Of a stretch of DNA of 64,000 nucleotides, positions 1 to 29,945 are shown piece after piece. Source of the stretch: Cirrosporium novae-zelandiae (taxonomy: Eukaryota); assembly GCA_026023565.1 (NCBI GenBank), contig JAPETS010000034.1, positions 62,001 through 126,000 on the forward strand, read 5' to 3'. A program made the translations under genes and the position numbers. Positions within the stretch are counted from its first letter, which is position 1, and each line of letters opens with the position of its first letter. The notes below the pieces were generated by a model. It was given only the letters and a program-made list of their open reading frames with translations, searched no databases and was not told the DNA's origin.

Positions 1-2816
1 TTTTTTGCGGGTATGGATGTGGATACGTTGACTGCGGTTTGGGTGTACCAGTCGTACCAGGGGTCTGGACCCGGGAAGACACCCGAGACCGAGGTGGCGC
101 CCTGGGTTAGGACGGGAGTGACGAGGATGCTGGGACCGAGGAGGAACTGTCTATCTGCAGCGGCGAGGGAAGGGTCATTTGGAAATTCCCAGGCGAGGGC
201 GCGCAGGACCGTGGAGCCGGATGTGTGGGCCAGGTGGAAAAGTGTGTACATGTATGGTAGGAGGTGGAAGCGGATTCGCATTGCGGTTTTTGTGGCGGAG
301 ATGACCGAGGACCAGATGTAGGCTTCCTGGGGGATGGCGCCGAGGGTATTGTGGTTGCGGTAAAAGGGGAAGAAGGCGCTGAGTTGCATCCAGCGGGAGC
401 ATAATTCAGCGTCGGTGTTGTCGTTGAAGCCGCAGGCGTCCGGGCCGAACATGGGGATGCCGAAGAGGGAGAAGGAGAGCGCTTGCGGGATCGAGAAGTA
501 CATGTAGATCCATTTTGAGAAGTTGTCGCCGCCCCAGTGGCCCGCTTGTTTGCCGGTGCCCGCGAAGGTGGAGCGGCCAATTATGAAGGGACGTTTTGTG
601 GGAGAGATTTTTAGGAGGGCTTGGTAGGTTGCATTTAAGATTTGGTGGCCAAAGAGATTGTGGATATCGTATTCAACGGTGCCGTCGGCGTGCGTAGCGT
701 TGGGGGAGACGGCATGCACCGCGAGATCGCCTTTGACGTGGTTTAGGGTGTAGGGTGGGTAGTTTATATTTCTTACGCCGGGGGTGGGCGTTGTGCGGAG
801 GTACGAAGTTGATGTCAATGGCGCCGGGCTCGCTGTTCGTTGATATGAAGATGCTTGGGATGATGCTCCAGCTACGGCAGAAGCAGCCTCTGTAGAATTT
901 GTAATATTGAAGCCTTCGGGATAGTCGTAAACCATGTTTCCCTTTTCTCCTGGCAACGGACCTGGCTGGTGAACGGGATTCAATGATAGATTGTTGGACC
1001 CACAGCTGCCCACGCAGAATGAACTGACTTCACTCATGTCGATCCATGCTCCGTCAAATGAAATTTTGCTATACCAGTTGCTCATCTCAGAAATCCACCA
1101 GTCGACAGCGTGGGTGGCAGACCAGTCCGGAAAGACTGTGTATCCGGGCCAGACTTCTCCTATGTATAGGCTTCCATCAGGGTTGGTCATGAAGACCGAG
1201 GAGGCGTTGCCGCGATCAAAGGTACTATAATTATCGCTAGAGTTCGTGGGATTGGGTATATAGATCGCAGAGTCGATTATAGGGATATAATGACGACCGC
1301 TGGCGTGGAGGCGAGATAGAAATGCCTCCCCGGCGGTATAGTTGAAAGTGTTTGGGTCGTTATCGAAATCGCGATATTCCTTCATGTAGTCGATATCGGT
1401 CCTGCGGAGTAGGTTAGCTATTCGTCCCTTTCAGGTAAAGTATATTGGATATTATGTGGCACCAAATATTCTCGAGAGGAATGCCGAATTTCTCATAGTT
1501 ATCAACGACATCTTCCACCACAGACCAATTTTGATATCCCCATCTGCATTGGTGGAAACCAAACGTGAAATACTGCTGCATTGCAGGCAATCCAACAACA
1601 CCTGACTGGTATGCTTTCGTGACCTCATGCTGCGATGGGCCAGGGAAGAAGTACAGGTCGATACCACCACCCAGAGTTCTCCAGGTAATATTTTGTTGGC
1701 TAAGTAATATCTCTTGTCCATGTGCATTCCGAAGGAAAACACCATGAGAATGGGAGATATATTTATTAGAAGGGTTAATCTCATTGCTAGTAACGAGGGT
1801 CATGTTTCCGGTAGCATTGTCGACTTCATAATACCTGGTGTCAAGATAGAATGGGTGGCTGCCATAAATGTTGCTAGGAATTTTAGCAAAACATAGACGC
1901 AAGTGATAAAGATCTCAGTAACTTACTTGTCTATCCCATCCGCATCATCCGCAGCATACATTGTCCGAATAAAGTCATTACCCAGTCTCAATTCATGGAT
2001 AACTTCACCCAGTCCATAAATGTTATAATTTTCTGGCAGCTCGCTCACAAATTCAATGAACTGGTTCTCATATACCAATTTCGTCCCTTGAGTAGAAAAG
2101 AGGATATCTCCAGACGATGGGCGGATAATTGAGAAAGAAAAGGTTGGTGAATTTTTCCACCTAAAGTCAAGGTCTAGGCCAAGGCTAGTGACATTTGCAT
2201 CCGAGTCCACGGTAGGCTTATATACTAAGTTGGTTGGGAGTATATACTGTGAGGAGTTTGATCCATTGATATATGTAGGAACAATTTCCACGTGCAGCCG
2301 ATCCGCAGATTGATATTCAACAGTCAAATTCAGGTTCTCGATATCAGTTCCGTAGACATTGCACGGTTTTCCTGCTAAAGTGAGTGATGCCGTCAATCCG
2401 ACATGCGATTTTGTTATATTGGAAACAGCATAACCGGGGCAGACTGTTTGAGCATCAATAGCTTCAGGGTCATAGATGTTAGGTATGACTGGTTGGCCAA
2501 TGTCAGCACTTGTTGGAACTGTATATATCGGTCTGTAGCTTGTTGTTATAGAAGTAGAATTTTGGGCGGTTGTTGTGGAGAGCAGCGGAATCCAGATGAA
2601 GAACCCCAGAGGAAGAAGGTTTAGCCAAGGCATTGTTGGTGACCATAGATAGTCACCAATGTTGGAGTTTAAGTAGATTGGCAGGGATGATGATTGTCTC
2701 AGTTGAAATGATAGCCAACCAGCGCAAGCCAGAAAAGACGAAAGAATTAGGACGAGAGAAAGGAAAATAGCACAGGGGAGAAGTAAAGGACCCTTAGGAA
2801 GCAGAAGCGTAGCCAT
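1..2816 (-). CDS. Secreted GH31 alpha-glucosidase (AgdA-like), 3' end outside the window; introns at about 1926-1874 and 1462-1402
   Basis: GH31 motifs NIYGSHPFY, GFHQCRWGY, NIW|TDIDYM (across a splice), nucleophile motif WIDMSE (~1030-1047) and acid/base motif GHWGGDN (~520-542). Two candidate in-frame starts: 2816 and 2633 (the latter followed by a signal peptide). Confidence 0.93.
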
Positions 2817-4274
2817 AGCAGTACATGAACAATATAAGATAGCGGGGTAACGTTACTCATACAAACATCAAGGAAACAAGAAACCAAGGTGGATCGGTTG
2901 GAAAGGAAGCTCTCGAGACCCAAGAAATGTAGGTTGTGGGTGACGTTAATGTCACTCGTCCAAAGTACGTTTTATAAGGATTCAAGTAAACACAATTGAG
3001 GGTACTTCTGCAGTCGGACCGAATGATGATCAGCAAATGCAGAATGAGGTTGAAATGGAACTTGATCAATACATGCAATGAGTGAGATGGAGAGAGGCTC
3101 TAGCAAGGATGTAGGCACTAATTACATACTTAATTTATGAAATGAGATGGAAGCTTGAAGATGCAAGGAACAATTAAAGTATAATTAAAAGGACTTGGTA
3201 TCAAATGTGTCACTATTTTGCGGGGTAGGCAGGTAGGTTATTGATGATAAAAGCGATGGTGGTGGGTCACCGACGGCAAAGACGGGAATAGTCAAAGGAA
3301 TTGGTGCCGCGGCGATGTAAATGTACCTAGGTATTTACACTTTCACCTCTAACAGAACTGCAGTGTAACCTTGGACTCAAGTCATTTCTAACGAAACGAA
3401 ACATATCCCCTAGACAACCCCTAGCTAAGAAGTGCGATGTGGGGGGGTTTTCGGTGAGATTCTCTACAACTTTATCACGAGGGTCTTAATATAAGCCGGA
3501 CTCACATCTTTTTTTTTTTTACTATCATTTTTCCTGTAGAGGCTTTCAAATAAAATTAACTTTTATCTTCTAGGTTTATATCACCATTTTGATCCCCAAT
3601 ACAAATAGTGAAGATCCGAGTTTGTGGGCCCTGCTTATTTTGGGACCAGCGTGCCTATCTGTTGGGGATGGAATGATGTACCACGCACATCTGTACAAAG
3701 CGATTTCTGACGCGGCAATTTTCATTTCGATTCATTAATCACAGTGATTTCAAGACTCAACTAATCTATCCATCGTCCCTCCTCACAATGCCTATGTCTT
3801 CCCCTCACTCACCATACCCCTTCTCCCCCTACACCGCCAATAACTTCGCCGTATACACTATACCCATGAATCTTTTTCGGCTAACTATTACAGAAAGAAA
3901 AAGAAAAAAAAAGAAAAAAGAAAAGAAAAGGTATAAACACATGAAGGAGATGAATATACTCCAAATGACGCCTCCAACACCCCAATGCGTCGGTCACCAG
4001 GTCCAATGTTGCATGCCTGGTGCCTAGTAATGCTGGTGATAGAACCAAATGTCTCGCGCGGATGCGATAGAACACCCCCACAGAGATATCATGAACCCGA
4101 GTTCAAGGTCGAGGTCCAAGCAAAGCAACTAGCCAGAAGTCTCTGAAGAGTACAGATGTCATATCATCTTCTTAATGCTGCTATTGTTGCTGTATAATAG
4201 ACCGATCGATAGCGATAGTAGGGCTATGCCGGGTGAAGAAAAATATCGCACCTGGAAACGCGGACCTTGTATTA

Positions 4275-7200
4275 TTACTCGTCACTTGCTCGAGCCTTTC
4301 TCCGTCGAGAGAAGAAATCCATAACTCTCCTAGCAGCTCCAGAAGATCCCGAATGGTGACCGTGATGTTCATTTTCATATGCATCGGCAAATTTCCTGTT
4401 ATTTTTCTGAAGTACTCTTGAACTTCTATCTCCAGGACGATTTTGGGGTACTGGTAGGCGCGAGTGGTCTTCATAGCTGTTGAATCCATCTTCATGTATG
4501 GGGTTGAAAGATGAAGGGTTGGTGGCAGCCGTGCGTGACTTTGTTAAAGGTGGAGTCTCGCTTTGCAGATAGGAATGATCTGCGTAGCCAGTGGCATGGT
4601 CCATGGAATGATCATCATGTGGTTCACCATGATTAGGAACACCAAGCTGTCCTGACACAGGCTGCTCACTCCTATCGTGAGGATCTACTTCATGATTTTG
4701 TTGGATCTGACCGTCATAATGACCATCATATCCACGGCCAAGGCTGTCTTCGGAGCTGACACTAGGAGATTCACCTCTACCAAAAGCCATCTGCATTTTT
4801 TGGGGACCCCTACTTCCAGGAGGTTGTGGGAAATCTTTAGGATCAGCCATATCTTCGGACATATCTGTTTGTGACTCCTTAGAACCGCTAGCAAAACTTT
4901 TGAAAGAAAAGGAAGCAGGTAATATTGAGAATCGTCGAGGCCTTGATCCATCCTCCGCTTCACTTCTTTTCCTATGAATGCTAAACGACGGACGGCGGGA
5001 TTCTGACGATGGTCTTGGAGTAACACCAACGGGTAAAGGTTCTTTCATACTTGTTGGAGGATAACTCTTGCCAGGCTTTTGACGAGAGCCAGACCCTTGA
5101 GACTTCCCTCCGAACATGGATCCTGAGCGTCCAAATATCTTTTCGCCGATTCCCCCAATTGTATTTGACCGTTTGTGTCCACGCTTTTGGTCTTGTCCAG
5201 GAGGAGCTTGCACTGGTGCCTGTGCTGGTTCACTTGGAACTTGTCGGCTTCCTCTCCTACCGCTAGGGGGTTGTGGAAACATATGTTCATTTGGTGGAGA
5301 TTGGTTTTGTACGATGTATTGCTTGCTCGTTTTTGGCTGGGCGAGCCTTCCTTGTGCGTGTGCATTAGTCGCTTGAACGGTAGGAGCGACTGGCTGGCTG
5401 TACGATCCGCGCGATGGTAATCTAACATCTGCCACGGTAGTACCCCTGGTCACAGAACCTTGAGTGGTCGGTCTTGCACTAGGAAGTGGCGCTGTCTGGT
5501 TGAATCCAAATGCGTTTTGGGAGTCAGAAACCGATCTAGGAACTTCTCGAGCAGATCGAGTTGGTGGTGGCATATTTGGTTGTGGATGAGATTGTTTCTG
5601 CTGGTGAGGTAAGGGAATTCCACTAGATACTGGACGAGTCTGTTGCTTAGGAACCGGAGCTGGCTTGGGTTCTGGGGGTAATGGCTTCGAGTCAAGGGTA
5701 CCTTGACGCACAGCATTATGAGCTCCTCTAGACCTTGTTTTGGGTTGTGCTGAAGACGATGCCACTGGTGGTTGTGACGGCGTGCCACCGACATGTTCCC
5801 GCGCTGTTTGCGATTGAGGTGCGACATATTCAACTTGTACGGTCCTCCGCTTTGGATCTCTCTTGCTTTGTTTGTCGGATGGTTCCTCGTCCGCGACTTT
5901 ACCTTGTTGATGATTTAGTCCACCAACAGATGGTCTATTCGAAGGATGGGCGCGGGACGGTTCTCGGACAGAGGCGCTACGGTTAAGCAGGGGTGCTTCC
6001 TGTTGATCTTCTGTAGACTGTGTTAGACCCATCGAACTCTGATTCTCTAGACTTGCTAAATCATGATTTTTTTCATGCTTTTTGACAAGTCCCGAAGTCA
6101 GCATAGTATAGGAGGGTGTCATACCAGCTGTGACGGTCGTGTTTGCAATTTCCCCGACAGTAGTGGTGCTGCTTGTGATATGCGATACAACATGGGCATA
6201 ATCGCTCAGCCAACTATGTCTCGCTACCTCGAAAAGGTCGGCTCGTTTCCTTGGATCGGGGACCAAGATGCGCCGCAACAGATCCCTCGCATGGGGTGTC
6301 ACATATTCCGGGAATGTCAGAGGAGTCGAAACAATATACTTGTACAGAAGATTGATATTATCTCCCTCCGGGTTTGCGGGGTCGTCGTCAAAAGGAAGAT
6401 AGCCTGCAAGCATTGCATACTGCGGAATCGATCAGCCGAGGTCGTTGACGGAAAGACTAGGTAAGAATAGTAAAAAAGAGGGAGAAGCATACCAAAATTA
6501 CACCGCAACTCCAAACATCTACTTTTCTTCCAGTATACAACGAATCGCTTACAACCAGTTCTGGGGCTGCATAGCATGGACTTCCACAACTCGTCTGCAT
6601 TAAGTCCCCTCTGCGATGTCCATCCGGTTTTGGTCGCTCAAGGTCCATCTTCTTTACAAATTCTTTGTTGGTCAAGTTGTATTCGATCTCCTCACCAAGT
6701 TCATCATTGGGTTCAAAGGTATTCGCAAAACCAAAGTCAGTAATGATGATATTGCGGTTTCGATCGAGCAAAAGATTCTCTAATTTCAGGTCCCGGTGAA
6801 CGATTCCTTTTTTGTGGAGATATCCTACTCCTGAGACAAGTTGGGCAAAAAGACGACGGGCAGGGCCATCCTTCAAATATCGATGGTTTAGAATATAGTC
6901 GAATAACTCGCCACCAGATGCATACTCCAGTATGATACCAATATGTCTATCCGTCTCAACCATTTCATGTAGTCGCACAATGTTGGGATGAGATAGCGTT
7001 CGCAAAATCGAGATTTCCCTGTAAATCTTTGGTAAACGTCCGGGATTAGTACCCAAAGTATCCCGACGAATCAACTTGATAGCAACTTGTACGCTGCCAT
7101 CTAGTTTCCAGCCCAGCCGGACTTTGCCAAATTCACCTTCTCCCAATGTCTGACCAAGAATGTAATCGCCGAATTTAGTTTCCTTTCGCTTTGAATGTGA

Positions 7201-23746: not shown

Positions 23747-25120
23747 ACCAATTTCCGCCCAGATGCAAGCTTCTTCCTTTTAAGATTTTCTTTCGGTCAA
23801 TGTTAATTATCTCCATCTTATTTCAAACCTTCTACTCGCTGATCTCCTTCTTTACTCTCTGTCTTATTAAACTCATTTCTCAAAGCTAGAGAGAGCTATG
23901 GCTTATTTATATATAGTTCTCCCCCTAGATATAACCACCCTACCTTGGTAGATATAAACAATTATTGCGATCCAGTGTTTAATTCATGCTATTTCTAGCT
24001 CGCTTTTGCAATGTCAAGAAACACCATTTTGAAATGTATCATTATGCCATTTTCTATATCTGTTCTCGTTTAGTGGAATTTTGACCAATTGATTTCAACC
24101 TAGTGTGGGCGCCTCTGCAACAGGACACAAACACCTGATCTCGTGCAAGCTTGTTCGTATCTTTGTATTGTATCTCCTTATATGATGAATACATCGTATT
24201 CTATTGTATAATATCAGTTTGCTACACAAAAGTCAGATATCGTTGGCCGTTATGTGCCTCGTGTGTTACACATCTTCCTAATACTAGGTTTTTCCCTCTT
24301 CAGTCTCTGCGCCGCAACGTTTTAGGCAATATGACTTAACATTTAGGATCTTGTCGTCACCACGTCAGTAATGGCTGGTGTTTATTATTTCATACCCAAA
24401 CGGAGCTCAATCCATCTAGCCTAGGCCCATTTTGAGCCAATCCTCTGATGGCCGTGTGACTGCGAATCTATCCACCGACGGCAATCTCGCCGTCATAAAC
24501 CTGTTCAGATTCACTTTCAGGACAAAGCGCCTAATCAGAACTGGCTTACTACCTGCCGAAATTTTATGCTTATTTACAAACGGACCGAGGAGGTCACATC
24601 TTGATAATACAATAGATGCCCTAGGTTCTATCAGTCGCCATTGCCCTCTTAGACATTCGGAGGTCCTGGTAGAAATGGCGAAACCGTCCGTCATATTCAC
24701 ATCTACCATGCGTTTTGGCTAGAATACGCATTGAAAACACTCAAGCAACAATGACTGTGCAAAACTGACAAACGTTGTCTCTGGGGTGACTATTTTACAT
24801 CTTCTAAAGAGGGTGTGAGGCAAATAAAGGGGCTGATCCTAGTTCTAGTTATCCACGTATTGCTCTTTGAACAAACGCCGAGATGACCGCAAGAATTATA
24901 GATTGTTATTTAAAAGCTTTCACGATCCCGACCCTTCTTGTCTTGTCCTCTCAACCCTAGTAATCGAACCCTTGGAGACCATAGTTGGGAAATCCTGTGA
25001 ATCTTGGACTACCTTCTTCGAGCGATTGCATACCAGTCTCCTCTATCGCCTTCCACCTACGATATATACTAAGGCGACGAACTCCAACCCCAATTACCAT
25101 TATTCCTGTGGTTACTCAAA

Positions 25121-25393
25121 ATGCCGTATCATTCTCGATGCTCATGCCTCTTTAATAGAAATATGTATCAATGTGGTCACTTTAGCCAGTTGACGATGCT
25201 AAGAATGTGCGACCTAAATGAAGCCGAACTTATGCGCATATTCGATCCCCAAGAAAGGGAAGACACTATCCCTTTTACCAACCATCCTTGCTGCGAACCC
25301 CAAAATGAACGAAATATAGTTTTGAATTTTGTTCCCGCCCTGTGTCCATATTGCTGGCAAGAATATTGCAATTGCCTATATCGGAGCTCCTAG
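25121..25393 (+). CDS. Small Cys-rich hypothetical protein (CxxxxxxxxCGH ... CPxC), possibly zinc-binding
   Basis: 90-aa ORF with YQCGH and LCPYC spacing, as seen in many small unannotated fungal proteins. Confidence 0.5.
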   Translation: MPYHSRCSCLFNRNMYQCGHFSQLTMLRMCDLNEAELMRIFDPQEREDTIPFTNHPCCEPQNERNIVLNFVPALCPYCWQEYCNCLYRSS

Positions 25394-25807
25394 ACTACGC
25401 AACTGGGGATGAAATCACTAGGCTAATGGTGATGACAACTGGTCGACTATTTCTAGCCAAGGAAGGCTATTTCTATTCGGCAGTCACGTGACTAAGACCA
25501 ATCAACTCCCCGGAACATAGGAGTCGATGGTGCGTCATTATTTCGCAAGTCCCGCAGGTTCATATCTGGACGCATTGGATCTAGGACGGAGTTTGGATCA
25601 GGTTGTCATTCTTCAATTCAAGAATGGAGCTTTTAGTTTTGTGATATGGATAGGTAAAGTCACGTTTCAGCGCTGGGGATATGATAGTTTTTGATACCAC
25701 TTAGAATAAAAATGTTACAACACCTAGGATAGAGGTATAATTGGCATGGATATTGATCACTGAAGTCCAGAATCTAAGGTAGAAAGCTCAAGTTATAAAA
25801 GTAGTAC

Positions 25808-25851
25808 TACACACCGCCCGTCGCTACTACCGATTGAATGGCTCGGTGAGG
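25808..25851 (+). rRNA. 44-nt fragment of 18S rRNA (3' region); a captured fragment, not an rDNA unit
   Basis: TACACACCGCCCGTCGCTACTACCGATTGAATGGCTCGGTGAGG includes the universal SSU GTACACACCGCCCGTC motif (first G missing) and its fungal continuation. Confidence 0.92.
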
Positions 25852-26872
25852 GACAAGCAGTTGTGCAGGTAATATACAGGCACACCAAATACCTAGCAGA
25901 CCAAGGGGCTGAAGTCACTATTCGGTGGGTCCCTGGGCACCATGGAGTCCCCGGTAATGAGGCTGCGGACCAAGCAGCGAAAGCAGGCGTAACGCAGGGG
26001 AGCAGCAGGGAGGCCCCATGGACCTCTTTAGCTTACATAGCCCGCAGCATAACCGAAAAACGGGGTATAAAAATTTACGAGCAGCTGTAGCAATGGGAAC
26101 GACAAAATCACCCGAGAGGCTTTATATATTGCAACCAAAATATAAAGCGGATCGGGTGCTGGATTACGCATCAAGGGGGCTTGTCGATAGGCTCCATCAA
26201 TTAAGAACGGGGCACGCCGCTACCGGGGAGTATATGCACCGCACAAAGGCCATAACTACCCCGGAATGCTAGTGGTGCGGGGCCTCATGTCAAGATATCC
26301 CCAATTTGGTGCTAATATGCTTACGTTGGCGGACAGCTAGGGTCCGTATAAAAGGAGCTATAGAAAAGCAGGGGGGTCAGTAGCCCTGTATAGCCGATCG
26401 AGATGGGCTAGCGGTCTTGTTAGGGGACCGCAGGTTCTCTAAAGACTGGTTAAGATTTTTTAAATAATATGGGGGTGGGTAAGCCCCAATTTTGGACTAG
26501 GCATGAAAGGGAAACCCGCGAAGCTTACCTGGAGTGGGGGTGTGTAGAACGCGGGTATGGGGGGAAAGAGGACCCAGAAGAGGTGGGAATTGGGTAAGAG
26601 CTCGGCTCGCAGTAGTAACGCGAGGTGAGCGCATGCATAAAGCAGGAGCCGAATGGCTAAGAAAGAGGTACCCGGTGAGGTAGTTAAGCGATTCTAGGAA
26701 ATCTAAATCGGGGGGGGGGAGGCTTTTAAAGCCGAACCAGGGGCTTAACCCCCACCACCTTAGTTAAAAGCACGCCCGCAAGGGGACACGAAGGGGCCTA
26801 AGCCTAGGCGATAAGCCCCCGAGTCTTGTCCATCATAGCCGTCAAGCGACATATGGACATAAAACAATGAAT

Positions 26873-26910
<38 letters not shown>
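25851..26910 (+). mobile_element. 5'-truncated, decayed non-LTR retrotransposon (Tad1-like) with RNase H, C-terminal zinc-binding region, 3' UTR and (ATC)12 tail
   Basis: RNase H C-half VTIRWVPGHHGVPGNEAADQAAK, then LHQLRTGH and C*WCG...C, with stops and a frameshift. (ATC)12 at 26874-26909. Confidence 0.88.
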
Positions 26911-27077
26911 ATAAACCCAAAATCAGGGGGGTTTAACGCCCACCACCTTTAGTTAAAAGCATACCCGTGTGGGGGGGGCGGAAGGGCTCAAAGCTTAGGC
27001 TGCAAGCCCTGAAGCCTTGTCTGCCATAGGTCTTAAGCGACATGCAGACATAAAACAATGAATTATCATCATCATCA
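26911..27077 (+). mobile_element. Second, diverged copy of the same retroelement 3' tail, with (ATC)4
   Basis: Aligns by eye to about 26729-26880 (shared caccacct(t)tagttaaaagca, aagcgacat, gacataaaacaatgaa). Ends in (ATC)4 at 27065-27076. Confidence 0.85.
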
Positions 27078-29945
27078 CGAACCAGCGGACCATCGGTCAT
27101 CTCATACTAAAAAGTCTGCTCGAACAATTTTGATTGAGGAACAGTTCACACCAAAAGGGACATGCCTGAACCCTGTGAACAAAACCAAATACTTCCTTTA
27201 CGCCTATGCCCGCATATGCATAGGATGCATCGGTATAGAACTAGTACTCGAACCCGAGCCGCATTACAAATTCGATATGGAGCTAAGCGGGGCTCCTAGG
27301 GATGGGAGGCCAGGCACGCCAGTAGATGTTCTAGTAGTAGACTGCTGAGTCCCATGAGTAAGATGTTTAAAAGTCTGAAGGGGCGCTAAATAAAGGCCGA
27401 CCTAGAAAATGCAAGCCCTGAGACGTTCGCTTTGGGATCCTGCTTTAACTACGCGCCGAGTATTCGCGCTATCGAGGTCCGGCAGGATCGTAACCAAAGG
27501 GAGTCGTTGCATTAATCGAATTATTATGGCACCCAAAAAATTATTAAAAAAGGTGGAGAATGGTTTTGAGGAGAACATGGACGTTGATACCCCGACAGAT
27601 GAGGCCTGGGCCTCATCCGCTGATGGTGTCAAGCTCTCCAAAGAAAAATTTTCGTTTGACAACCCAAAGGGCGCGCCGATCCACCCCGTCATACGGGGTA
27701 GGAAACGCAAGTCCGATCTTTCGGAGAGGGAAAAGAACAAATCCCCTTCCATCCGTAACCCGATCCCTAAACCCATCAAGAGTCGTACCGCCACGCCTTC
27801 CGAGGCGGATACGCTCGAAAGTAGGGAGGAGGAGAAAGCTAAAGCGACCCCCTTGGAGGAAACTCCGGAGGAAAAACACCGAGGAAAAAATGCGGAGAAG
27901 AAAGCGGCGCGGAAATCGAAAACGACGGCTACCAAGGCCACGGAAAAAATGTCGGTCGAGGACAAACCAGTCTCGAAGGAGTCGGAGAAAAAGTCCAAGA
28001 TCAAAGAACCGGAAAAGCCCCGCATAGTTACTGCCTTTAGACGAGCTATGAGGAGCGGTTACTACATGTTGGCAACCAAATGCCACGCTGGAGACCCCGA
28101 GATTGGCCGGGAGGGGTTCATTCGAAAATGGACCGACGTCCGTGCCAAACAAGGGGGTGGTAGGCTTCCGGAGATAAAGGCGGTTCTTGTCTTCGGAAAA
28201 GAAATTGCCATCGAATTCAACTCTGCTGAGGATGCCAACGCTGTGGAAGGGGAAAAGTTTGAGAATGGTTCAGGTCACTGGATCCACCTCAAGCGAAATA
28301 TGGTTGCCACCGCAATTATTTTTTCTATCCGGAAAGCATCCCTTAGCAGTGCTGACGATGTAATGAGTGCGTTTAAGAAGAAGTTTCTGGTGGATAACTT
28401 CCGGCTGTACCAGGGATTGATCTCAGGAATTGGGACCCACGACTGGGCAGCTGAATTCTTGGAGCTACCATATACGACAATAAGGACGGTGGAGATCCCA
28501 GAGACAGAAGTGGAGGGAAAGGGTGCATGGAGCTGCTAAGTCGTCGCAGAAAGCTCTCCATGCCATTTTTGTAACCAACATGAACACGAGCAATGTGCCG
28601 CCGCGTGCGGTAGTCTGAAGTTCATGGGGGCTACAAATCATGTACCTATACACCCCCCCCCCCCTCTCCTAAAAAATGAATAGTACAAATAATAGAATAA
28701 TAATTGCATCCGTGAATATAAATGGAGCATTTGACCGCGACCGGATGCGAAGAGTGTATATATGGATGTTGGCTAACGATGTAGCCGTAATGGTGTTGCA
28801 GGATACCAGAGTAACAAATGAAAGAGCTGATGAATTTAGAGACGATTTCCTTAAAGCCGAGATAATATCCTCTATAGGGACAGATATTTGGTCAAGTATA
28901 ATAATAATGATTAATAAAGAGAGCGAGTTTGGGGCAAAGAAACGTGAAAACGATGAACAACTGGGGTGACACCCAGGGACGAGTCCTGATTGCTCCGGTA
29001 AAAACCCAGAGGGAGCAGTTTGTGGTTGAGTGTGTATACGCTCCACCGAACGAGAGATCAAGGAGGGAGTGGAGGTCGACCTTTCGAAAGGCTGCGGAGA
29101 GAAACTCGATTGATAGGCCTAAATGTGATTTTCTCTGCGGGGATTGGAATATGGCGATCAATCGGGATGACAGTAACTCGAGGCGGACCACCTCTTAAGA
29201 AGATATGGAGGTTCATACCGAAATTTTAGAGATGCTAGGCGACGGGGGGACGGATTTCACAGATGGGTGGCGAATATACCACCCTGATAAGAAAATCTTT
29301 ATCCACGATAACACAGCACTCCGAAATAGGGAAGGCGTTGGCAAAAGCTGAATAGATAGAATATATGTTTGAAGGGATTGGTACCTTAGTGCAAAACATT
29401 GGGATATTATCCCCACGATATTATCTGATCACAGCATAGTAAAGACTGAATATTGTCTCCGAAACCCCCTTTTCGGAAGGGGTAGATGAGGCTGTAAGGA
29501 AGATTTTTGGAGGTTCCAAGCGCTATTCAGGAATACTGGCGGTGCTTCAAAAGGCTGTTTGGACCCATGATTGAAAGAGCCCCAGATGACCGGGAGATGA
29601 CCCAAGAAGATAGCCAAAAAGTCCTCAAAATGTGGAAAAAGGCCAAAGACGACCTACAGGAGGCGATAACGACGAGACAACAAATGGATTGGCGACGGTT
29701 AAGATCTCAAAAGCATACCCTCAGGATGAAGGCCCAGTCAAGCTAGAGACCTGAGGAGGAAGCCATGATGTACAGGATAGAACTTGAGGAAGAAGACCAT
29801 AAGGATTATTGCTATACGGAATTTGTTTAGGAACATTTTTACGAAAAAGTCAAAATATCACAAGGTAATTAGTGCTAGGGCATAGACTAATGTCCTAACC
29901 CAATCGGGAATATGGTAGGGAACCGTATAACAGAGAGGCCATGAT
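27078..29945 (+). mobile_element. Decayed L1/Tx1-like non-LTR retrotransposon: 5' leader, ORF1 (27526-28683, zinc knuckle), ORF2 APE endonuclease (from 28676); truncated before the RT
   Basis: ORF1 is Lys/Glu-rich with in-frame CHFCNQHEHEQC after a premature TAA. ORF2 motifs: IASVNING, VLQDT, VYAP, GDWN, DGWRIYHP, S*IDRIYV, LSDH, GRGR* (G.G.W linker). Many stops and frameshifts. Boundaries approximate. Confidence 0.8.

What the first reader, a model, noticed from the sequence alone, without database searches (positions are those of the whole stretch)
25808..26910. 18S rRNA fragment fused seamlessly to the 5' end of a truncated LINE (rRNA-LINE chimeric retrocopy)
Seen: 44 nt of sense-strand 18S rRNA (the decoding-region segment at the start of helix 44) run directly into the middle of a LINE RNase H coding region, with no spacer. 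The last G of the rRNA match doubles as the first base of the GGA-CAA (GQ) codons. No other rDNA is nearby. Established: template switching during target-primed reverse transcription makes 5' cellular RNA / 3' LINE chimeras (U6-L1 in mammals, MGL chimeras in Magnaporthe), and rRNA-headed SINEs are known in animals. Inference: this is either a one-off switch onto a cleaved 18S RNA, or a member of an 18S-headed non-autonomous family in a fungus.
Basis: partly seen in the sequence, partly recalled or inferred. Interest (0 to 1): 0.75.

Follow-up and report, generated by a model that had tools for sequence, protein, structure and literature searches.

The report
One-off 18S rRNA–LINE chimeric retrocopy
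A dead, front-truncated jumping gene (LINE) in a fungal-type genome carries 44 bases of the cell's own 18S ribosomal RNA fused to its front end, most likely a single copying accident of a known kind rather than a new mobile family.

Summary
Window 25808-25851 is an exact 44-nt sense copy of eukaryotic 18S rRNA. All 4 metagenome contigs that carry the same 44-mer are genuine rDNA, and 0 of 100 shuffles of the window give a match. The fragment runs without a spacer into the last third of the RNase H domain of a decayed, 5'-truncated LINE. That LINE's relatives encode an AP-endonuclease, a reverse transcriptase and RNase H. It has one frameshift, one in-frame stop, a roughly 500-nt 3' UTR and a (TCA)12 tail. 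The G at 25851 fits both the end of the 18S match and a conserved LINE Gly codon.

In contigs of a run that holds 96% of the locus's words, the 18S/LINE joint lies in one 1056-nt contig at depth 313. Single-copy flanks have depth 342-380. So there is one copy, not a family, and no sign of copies inside rDNA units. No other rDNA lies in the 64 kb. No target-site duplication was found, and the left (flank/18S) joint is not bridged by any of the 8 X1 pieces listed (152 pieces were not shown).

The best reading is one target-primed reverse transcription event that joined an 18S fragment to LINE RNA, by template switch or by prior RNA ligation. This is a new member of a known kind, of modest interest.

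The parts
25808..25851 (+). 44-nt sense fragment of 18S rRNA, ending 127 nt before the 18S 3' end. It is identical to 4 of 4 genuine rDNA contigs.
   Evidence: In one search, very deep contigs of X1, X2 and X3 cover just this stretch, and X2/X3 run on with 18S sequence after 25851.
25851..25852 (+). 18S/LINE joint. G 25851 fits both templates (1-nt overlap); 25852 is the first base that only the LINE explains.
   Evidence: X1 contig record 2 covers 25823-26860 with 0 differences at depth 313.
25851..26087 (+). C-terminal third of the LINE RNase H domain plus linker (frame 0). It ends at TAG 26088-26090, after which the homology continues in another frame.
   Evidence: Pfam PF00075 positions 101-140/141. 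It aligns to P0011 residues 1107-1176 of 1352.
26090..26368 (+). ORF2 C-terminal Cys/His-motif region in a second frame, so one frameshift lies near 26088. There is an in-frame TAG at 26270-26272 inside the C-x-x-C.
   Evidence: BLASTP to P0011 residues 1188-1280, E 9e-14; ORF list.
26369..26874 (+). LINE 3' untranslated region. It is G-rich, with a G run near 26707-26720. The stretch 26706-26779 matches many other contigs of X1.
   Evidence: table 2. The ORF end is inferred from the end of homology and from stops.
26875..26910 (+). (TCA)12 microsatellite tail of copy A.
   Evidence: The tool skipped 26861-26918 as a repeat.
26912..27077 (+). Second, much shorter 5'-truncated 3' end of a related LINE (copy B). 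It is 76% identical to 26740-26886 and has its own (TCA)4 tail at 27066-27077. It starts 1 nt after A's tail.
   Evidence: In one search, a unique contig starts at 27048, and loose ends at 27075/27077 show other copies with different flanks.

Best explanation
A single retrotransposition event of a fungal-type LINE (endonuclease + RT + RNase H type) made a two-part retrocopy.

Reverse transcription was primed at the target from the (UCA)n tail of the LINE RNA. It copied about 1.06 kb, as far as the RNase H coding region. It then continued on 18S rRNA from ...GGUGAGG backwards for 44 nt before the cDNA end was joined to the chromosome.

The change of template happened in one of two ways. Either the RT jumped from a broken or abandoned LINE RNA onto an 18S fragment, helped by at least 1 nt of shared G. 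Or an 18S fragment had already been ligated to a cleaved LINE RNA.

The copy was dead on arrival, because it lacks the endonuclease, the RT and two thirds of RNase H. It has since picked up a frameshift and a stop. A second short LINE 3' end later landed in or beside its (TCA)n tail.

Shown: the two parts, their orientation, the seamless joint, single-copy status and the decay. Inferred: the RNA-level mechanism, the order of events and the single-event origin.
For: - The 18S part is exact, in sense orientation, 44 nt long, and has none of its rDNA neighbours.
- The LINE part starts inside RNase H, at a conserved G-Q-A seen in 6 of 9 aligned relatives, with no spacer.
- The LINE part ends in a (TCA)12 tail.
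- Both parts have the same orientation and are joined directly. These are features iv, and ii (a 5'-truncated LINE), of the LINE chimeras listed in PMC2104539 (passages).
- Sense-oriented rRNA fragments of 50-482 nt fused to 5'-truncated L1 are described for 28S rRNA in mammals (n=18, 83% sense; bioRxiv 10.1101/2025.02.02.635956, passages).
- The joint is carried by a contig built from reads, at single-copy depth (313 against 342/380).
- The locus is euchromatic and gene-rich, with no rDNA.
- No differing letter is listed in 25808-25851 for X1, where summed depth is about 50,000. The fragment therefore matches the host's own abundant 18S as far as that table can show.
Against: - No target-site duplication of 7 nt or more was found, nor a 10-14-mer with 1-2 mismatches. 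I compared the 5' flank with the DNA after copy A and after copy B. This hallmark of a single TPRT event (feature v in PMC2104539) is missing or hidden.
- The 5' part is an internal fragment, not a full-length RNA, so feature i is not met.
- No listed X1 piece covers 25783-25822, so the flank/18S joint rests on the assembly alone (152 pieces not shown).
- X1 may be the sample the window was assembled from, so it is not independent.
- One copy cannot tell template switch from ligation or from filler capture.
Confidence: 0.65

Rival explanations
1. Filler capture at the 5' joint, or two independent events. A short piece of rDNA, or of 18S cDNA, was patched in by end-joining when the 5' end of an ordinary truncated LINE insertion was sealed, or it was already at the site. 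On this reading the RT never used 18S as a continuation template.
For: No target-site duplication was found. The fragment is very short (44 nt) and internal to 18S. Overlap at the joint is only 1 nt.
Against: The 18S piece is in the same orientation, with no spacer and no untemplated bases at the joint. Exact adjacency of two independent events is improbable. Sense-biased rRNA/LINE fusions are described as single events elsewhere.
Confidence: 0.12
2. The LINE, or one truncated copy of it, once sat at this position inside an 18S gene. It was transcribed with the rRNA, and the co-transcript was retrotransposed and truncated 44 nt into the upstream 18S (5' transduction from an rDNA insertion).
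For: It would explain a seamless sense 18S head. rDNA-specific LINEs that use 18S exist in animals (R8 of hydra; PMC5035012, passages).
Against: The joint is at single-copy depth in X1. All 4 rDNA contigs with the 44-mer are uninterrupted. The flanks of other 3' ends shown (loose ends at 27075/27077) differ from each other and from the 18S continuation. This rival needs two events and the mobilisation of a copy that lacks RT. The junction pattern has 0 hits in metagenome contigs.
Confidence: 0.07
3. Assembly artefact. The 44-nt rDNA-identical stretch wrongly links a unique contig to a LINE-bearing contig that really lies elsewhere, for example in one rDNA unit.
For: The listed X1 contigs break at 25782 and resume at 25823, and the (TCA)12 tail is not bridged either. 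The window itself is the only evidence for the left joint.
Against: The 18S/LINE joint is in a read-derived contig with 0 differences at single-copy depth. X1's contigs are very fragmented (157,048 records in 35.7 Mb), so a break carries little weight. A 44-nt repeat is shorter than the read and k-mer lengths of most assemblers (inference).
Confidence: 0.05
4. It is a member of an 18S-headed non-autonomous (SINE-like) family that LINEs mobilise through the shared 3' end.
For: The LINE 3' end is present in many contigs of X1: summed depth is 9,443 at 26706-26779 and 22,008 at 27002-27075. rRNA-headed SINEs exist in animals (cited).
Against: The joint, and the 220 nt after it, are single-copy in X1. 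The junction pattern has 0 hits in metagenome contigs. Protein searches with the chimeric frame found nothing. The body is a decayed coding region, not a SINE body.
Confidence: 0.03

Closest known systems
Bipartite LINE chimeric retrocopies: U6/L1, 5S/L1 and 28S rRNA/L1 in mammals
   Same: A sense-oriented cellular non-coding RNA piece is fused directly to a 5'-truncated LINE with the LINE's own tail. For 28S the head is an internal fragment of 50-482 nt and 83% are in sense (bioRxiv 10.1101/2025.02.02.635956, passages).
   Different: The head here is 18S; that preprint's main text has 0 occurrences of '18S'. It is 44 nt, just under their range. The LINE is of an endonuclease + RT + RNase H type with a (TCA)n tail, not a poly-A L1. 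The host looks fungal. No target-site duplication was found.
MINE (WEIRD-MGL) and tripartite chimeras of Magnaporthe grisea
   Same: A fungal LINE, a 5'-truncated LINE as the 3' part, a direct same-sense joint, and a proposed template switch during reverse transcription (PMC2104539, abstract start and passages).
   Different: MINE heads are full-length copies of one 1.1-kb non-coding RNA. They recur (31 MINE among 33 chimeras) with 10-20 bp direct repeats. Here there is a single copy with an rRNA fragment as head and no direct repeats.
rDNA-specific LINEs (R-elements; R8 in hydra 18S)
   Same: A LINE abutting 18S sequence in sense orientation (PMC5035012, passages).
   Different: Those elements sit inside rDNA units, with rDNA on both sides and in many units. 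Here only 44 nt of 18S lies on one side, in a gene-rich non-rDNA locus, at single copy.
rRNA-headed SINEs (5S-derived and 28S-derived; cited)
   Same: An rRNA-derived 5' part joined to a LINE-derived 3' part.
   Different: SINEs are multi-copy and transcribed from their own promoter. This is one decayed copy whose body is LINE coding sequence.

Membership tests
LINE-mediated chimeric retrocopy (features as listed in PMC2104539) | The 3' part is a 5'-truncated LINE with the LINE's own 3' end and tail. | tested here: met
   RNase H positions 101-140/141. ORF2 C-terminal region aligns to P0011 residues 1188-1280. (TCA)12 tail.
LINE-mediated chimeric retrocopy (features as listed in PMC2104539) | Both parts are joined directly in the same transcriptional orientation. 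| tested here: met
   18S sense 25808-25851 abuts the LINE sense strand from 25851/25852 with no spacer.
LINE-mediated chimeric retrocopy (features as listed in PMC2104539) | The 5' part is a full-length copy of a cellular RNA. | tested here: not met
   It is a 44-nt internal fragment, ending 127 nt before the 18S 3' end. Fragmentary heads are, however, described for 28S/L1 chimeras.
LINE-mediated chimeric retrocopy (features as listed in PMC2104539) | [quoted passage not shown] | tested here: not met
   No shared 7-mer or longer within reach of the ends, and no 10-14-mer with 1-2 mismatches. Copy B next to the tail, and decay, may hide it. No empty site is available.
rDNA-site-specific LINE (R-element-like) | Copies sit at one fixed rDNA position, in rDNA units, with rDNA on both sides. 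| tested here: not met
   No rDNA elsewhere in the window. Downstream of the tails there is no 18S continuation. The joint is at single-copy depth. All 4 rDNA contigs are uninterrupted.
rRNA-headed SINE / non-autonomous family | Many dispersed copies share the same head-body joint. | tested here: not met
   The joint contig has depth 313 against flanks of 342/380, and no other contig lies on 25892-26113 at 80% likeness or more. 0 metagenome hits. Only one genome was examined.
Endonuclease + RT + RNase H LINEs of fungi (Tad1-like; clade name recalled) | ORF2 has an AP-type endonuclease, RT, RNase H and a C-terminal Cys/His motif. | tested here: inconclusive
   The copy keeps only the RNase H end and the Cys/His region. 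Relatives at 30-46% identity have the full architecture. No phylogeny with named clade references was made.

The most novel reading that the evidence does not exclude
The choice of 18S segment may not be random. The fragment starts in the strand of the small-subunit decoding centre that lies against the mRNA (recalled). The donor breakpoint lies inside the LINE's own coding region. If the LINE RT engaged its RNA while that RNA was still on a ribosome, physical proximity could have steered the switch, or a ligation after cleavage, from the mRNA to exactly this rRNA strand. On that reading, such chimeras would be fossils of co-translational capture of LINE RNA (cis-preference) in a fungus. A population of new insertions should then show recurrent joints to this 18S region.
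Probability: 0.04. Interest if true: 0.7.

Novelty: new member of a known kind. Interest (0 to 1): 0.3.

Why it matters
It is a clean natural example showing that an endonuclease + RT + RNase H LINE in a fungal-type genome can fuse host 18S rRNA to its own cDNA.

This extends the short list of fungal LINE chimeras, which so far is WEIRD-MGL in Magnaporthe. It also extends the list of rRNA heads, which so far is 5S and 28S with mammalian L1.

In three full-text searches, and in the passages I read, I found no 18S/LINE chimera reported. That is a statement about those searches only.

As a single dead copy it has no evident function. Its value is as a marker of how the RT behaves, and as a dated character if the locus can be compared among related species.

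Tried and rejected
- Whole-genome search: no genome is held for this window. Copy counts therefore rest on contigs of one run.
- Rfam scan with a relaxed threshold on 25600-26100: the 44-nt fragment was not reported; only a chance-level lncRNA hit at E 3.5 appeared. I used rDNA contigs instead.
- Earlier findings of this scan: nothing by place, by sequence or by words.
- Word-indexed protein search with the LINE frame, 'longer' and 'near': nothing at E<=1e-3. The index-free HMMER search did find relatives.
- Cluster look-up of 6 relatives: only generic names ('ribonuclease HI') and no taxonomy.
- No RNA holder was listed among the sequencing runs, so nothing can be said about expression.
- X2 and X3, other organisms of the same study, cover only the 18S stretch. 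They give no orthologous or empty site.
- The X1 contig break at 25782 was considered as a possible true insertion boundary or an empty-site allele. I rejected it as uninformative because X1's contigs are very fragmented (157,048 records in 35.7 Mb).
- RIP indices of the LINE part: TpA/ApT 1.23, (CpA+TpG)/(ApC+GpT) 1.14, GC 0.52. This shows no strong RIP signature, although differences among family copies are mostly transitions.
- Structure prediction, complex prediction and atlas searches were not used, because they do not bear on the question.

Full report
**What is there**

The sequence at 25808-25851 is a 44-nt string that occurs once in the window. It never occurs, even with 3 mismatches, in 100 dinucleotide-preserving shuffles.

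I scanned metagenome contigs for the exact 44-mer and got 4 contigs.
- All 4 carry Rfam SSU_rRNA_eukarya (240-1374 bits), followed by 5.8S and LSU in rDNA order.
- In each, the 44-mer is preceded by ...ccctttg and followed by ccttcggac....
- In L002 the 44-mer is at 1201-1244 and the SSU match ends at 1371. The fragment therefore lies 127-170 nt before the 3' end of 18S.
- That this is the start of helix 44 / the decoding region is my recall, not a tool result.

blastn of the four rDNA loci against the whole window finds exactly 25808-25851 at 100% identity and nothing else below E = 1. A gathering-level Rfam scan of the 64 kb finds no RNA gene at all. So the fragment is real, in sense orientation, exactly 44 nt long and isolated from any rDNA.

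**The element behind it**

- The frame through the joint (25764-26087) hits Pfam RNase_H at profile positions 101-140 of 141 (E 3.6e-7).
- An index-free HMMER search of 1.84 billion representatives with 25851-26087 found 587 proteins at E<=1e-3, and 7 at E<=1e-10.
- Three of the four long hits scanned (P0011, P0062, P0108; 1211-1352 aa) have Exo_endo_phos_2, RVT_1 and RNase_H in that order. P0072 has the endonuclease and RNase_H but no RVT_1 hit. This is the ORF2 of an AP-endonuclease LINE with RNase H. In fungi that architecture is what I recall as Tad1-like. I made no clade phylogeny.
- In alignment A1 the window's G-Q-A lines up with (P/A)-G-Q-A in 6 of 9 relatives. The other three have different residues there.
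- The window aligns to P0011 residues 1107-1176.
- After TAG at 26088-26090 the homology goes on in another frame. Window 26090-26368 aligns to P0011 1188-1280 at E 9e-14, with an in-frame TAG (26270-26272) inside a C-x-x-C motif.
- A roughly 500-nt G-rich 3' UTR follows, then (TCA)12 at 26875-26910.

Copy A is therefore the last 1.06 kb of a LINE. It is truncated in RNase H and carries one frameshift and one internal stop.

**The joint**

True 18S continues ...GGTGAGG|CC. The window reads ...GGTGAGG|GACAAG. The LINE's conserved Gly codon is GGA at 25851-25853, so G 25851 fits both templates. There is a 1-nt overlap, no spacer and no untemplated bases.

**How many copies, and is the joint in the reads?**

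No genome is held for the window. One run, X1, holds 0.96 of the sampled words of 25000-27600. It is kept as 157,048 contigs totalling 35.7 Mb, and it may be the very sample the window was assembled from. I laid it on 25300-27500 at 80% likeness or more, with these results.
- A 1056-nt contig covers 25823-26860 with 0 differences at depth 313.
- The unique flanks are covered by contigs at depth 342 (25300-25782) and 380 (27048-27500).
- The joint is therefore present in read-derived sequence at single-copy depth.
- Bins 25892-26113 show no depth beyond the 313.1 of that one contig, so no second copy of the RNase H part at 80% or more exists in that data set.
- Further along, other family members appear. 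Short contigs with 14-22 differences lie on 26186-26318. Summed depth is 9,443 on 26706-26779 and 22,008 on 27002-27075. Their differences are mostly transitions (G>A 11, C>T 7, A>G 4, T>C 4 of 30 listed).
- The bins holding the 18S stretch have summed depth up to about 50,000 in X1, with no differing letter listed. As far as that table shows, the fragment equals the host's own abundant 18S.
- X2 and X3, other organisms of the same study, cover only 25808-25851, with 0-4 differences per listed piece. They run on after 25851 with CCTTGGGAC / CCTTCGGAC, which is the true 18S continuation.

There are limits to this evidence.
- No listed X1 piece covers 25783-25822.
- The (TCA)12 tail is not bridged.
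- The flank/18S joint and the tail/copy-B joint therefore rest on the assembly.

A 28-nt junction pattern, with the two variable 18S positions left free, has 0 hits in metagenome contigs. Two word-indexed protein searches with the chimeric frame found nothing. This is weak negative evidence.

**Surroundings**

The locus is gene-rich and looks fungal. Nearby genes include GH31, a protein kinase, an eRF1-domain protein, a Senescence-domain protein, acyl-CoA dehydrogenase, dihydroxy-acid dehydratase, UDP-glucose pyrophosphorylase, a sugar transporter and a tricalbin.

One nucleotide after A's tail, a second 5'-truncated LINE 3' end begins. This is copy B, at 26912-27077. It is 76% identical to 26740-26886 and has its own (TCA)4 tail. 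The simplest order of events is that B was primed in or beside A's (TCA)n tail.

Elsewhere in X1 a contig joins a 3' end (to 27075) through 13 other letters to another 3' fragment (from 27017) (table 5c). Head-to-tail pairs of 3' ends therefore recur for this family.

I found no target-site duplication. No 7-mer or longer is shared between 25650-25812 and the DNA after A or after B, apart from one distant TTTTGAT. No 10-14-mer with 1-2 mismatches lies near the ends.

**Explanation**

The most economical account is one target-primed reverse transcription event. cDNA synthesis was primed from the (UCA)n tail, ran about 1.06 kb up the LINE RNA, and continued on 18S rRNA for 44 nt. The cDNA end was then sealed to the chromosome.

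How the two templates came to be read in series is not decidable from one copy. There are two routes.
- A template jump from the end of a broken LINE RNA to the 3' end of an 18S fragment. Such jumps are documented for LINE-type RTs, by my recall.
- Ligation of a cleaved 18S fragment to a cleaved LINE RNA before reverse transcription. This has been proposed for U6/L1, again by my recall.

I put 0.65 on this single RNA-level event. The rivals are filler capture or two events (0.12), 5' transduction from a copy once inserted in an 18S gene (0.07), assembly artefact (0.05) and an 18S-headed family (0.03).

**Comparison with what is known**

PMC2104539 (abstract start and passages) lists the common features of LINE chimeras in mammals and fungi.
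- Features it lists: a full-length cellular RNA as the 5' part, a 5'-truncated LINE as the 3' part, random truncation points, a direct same-sense joint and flanking direct repeats.
- It describes 33 chimeras in Magnaporthe, 31 of them WEIRD-MGL.
- Our copy meets the LINE-part and joint features.
- It fails the full-length head and the direct repeats.

The preprint 10.1101/2025.02.02.635956 (passages) reports 28S rRNA/L1 chimeras.
- There are 18 of them, with fragments of 50-482 nt, and 83% are in sense orientation.
- This shows that fragmentary rRNA heads are part of the known spectrum.
- '18S' does not occur in its main text.

rDNA-specific LINEs that use 18S exist in hydra (R8; PMC5035012, passages). 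The defining context, rDNA on both sides and many units occupied, is not met here.

Searches for 18S/LINE chimeras or 18S retro-pseudogenes in fungi returned nothing relevant. Supplements were not consulted.

**Verdict**

The interpretation as a one-off rRNA/LINE chimera is the best-supported reading. The family reading and the rDNA-target reading are not supported in the one genome I could examine.

It is a new member of a known kind. It is a tidy specimen but single, dead and without evident function, so I score interest at 0.3. The main open points are read-level proof of the left joint and an empty orthologous site.

Noticed in passing
window 26875-27077; also X1 contig joint 27075->27017 (table 5c): Two LINE 3' ends lie head to tail. 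Copy B starts 1 nt after copy A's (TCA)12 tail and ends in (TCA)4. A similar pair, a 3' end followed by 13 nt and then another 3' fragment, exists elsewhere in X1. This suggests the family primes on, or prefers, its own (TCA)n tails.
   Followed up: partly
window 27002-27075 versus 26780-26853 (table 2): The last ~75 nt of copy B match contigs with a summed depth of 22,008. The corresponding part of copy A reaches only 795. The B-type 3' end is therefore far more abundant in X1 than the A-type, which could reflect a short non-autonomous element or a younger subfamily sharing that tail.
   Followed up: no
window 26186-26318: Only this stretch of the coding remnant, the conserved ...LRTGH...C-x-x-C region, attracts other contigs. 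There are up to 8 at one site, about 80-85% alike, and the differences are mostly G>A and C>T. These may be other LINE families sharing a conserved motif, or RIP-like decay of old copies.
   Followed up: no
window 27406-28539 (+): A 377-aa open frame, rich in Lys and Glu, starts about 330 nt downstream of copy B and has no Pfam hit at E<=0.1. The LINE pair lies in what would be its upstream region.
   Followed up: no
window 4275-6431 (-) and 1923-2852 (-): Two long open frames of 718 aa and 309 aa have no Pfam family at E<=1e-3.
   Followed up: no
window 25783-25822 (table 8): The listed X1 contigs stop at 25782 and resume at 25823, 25 nt before the 18S fragment begins. The cause is unknown.
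   Followed up: partly
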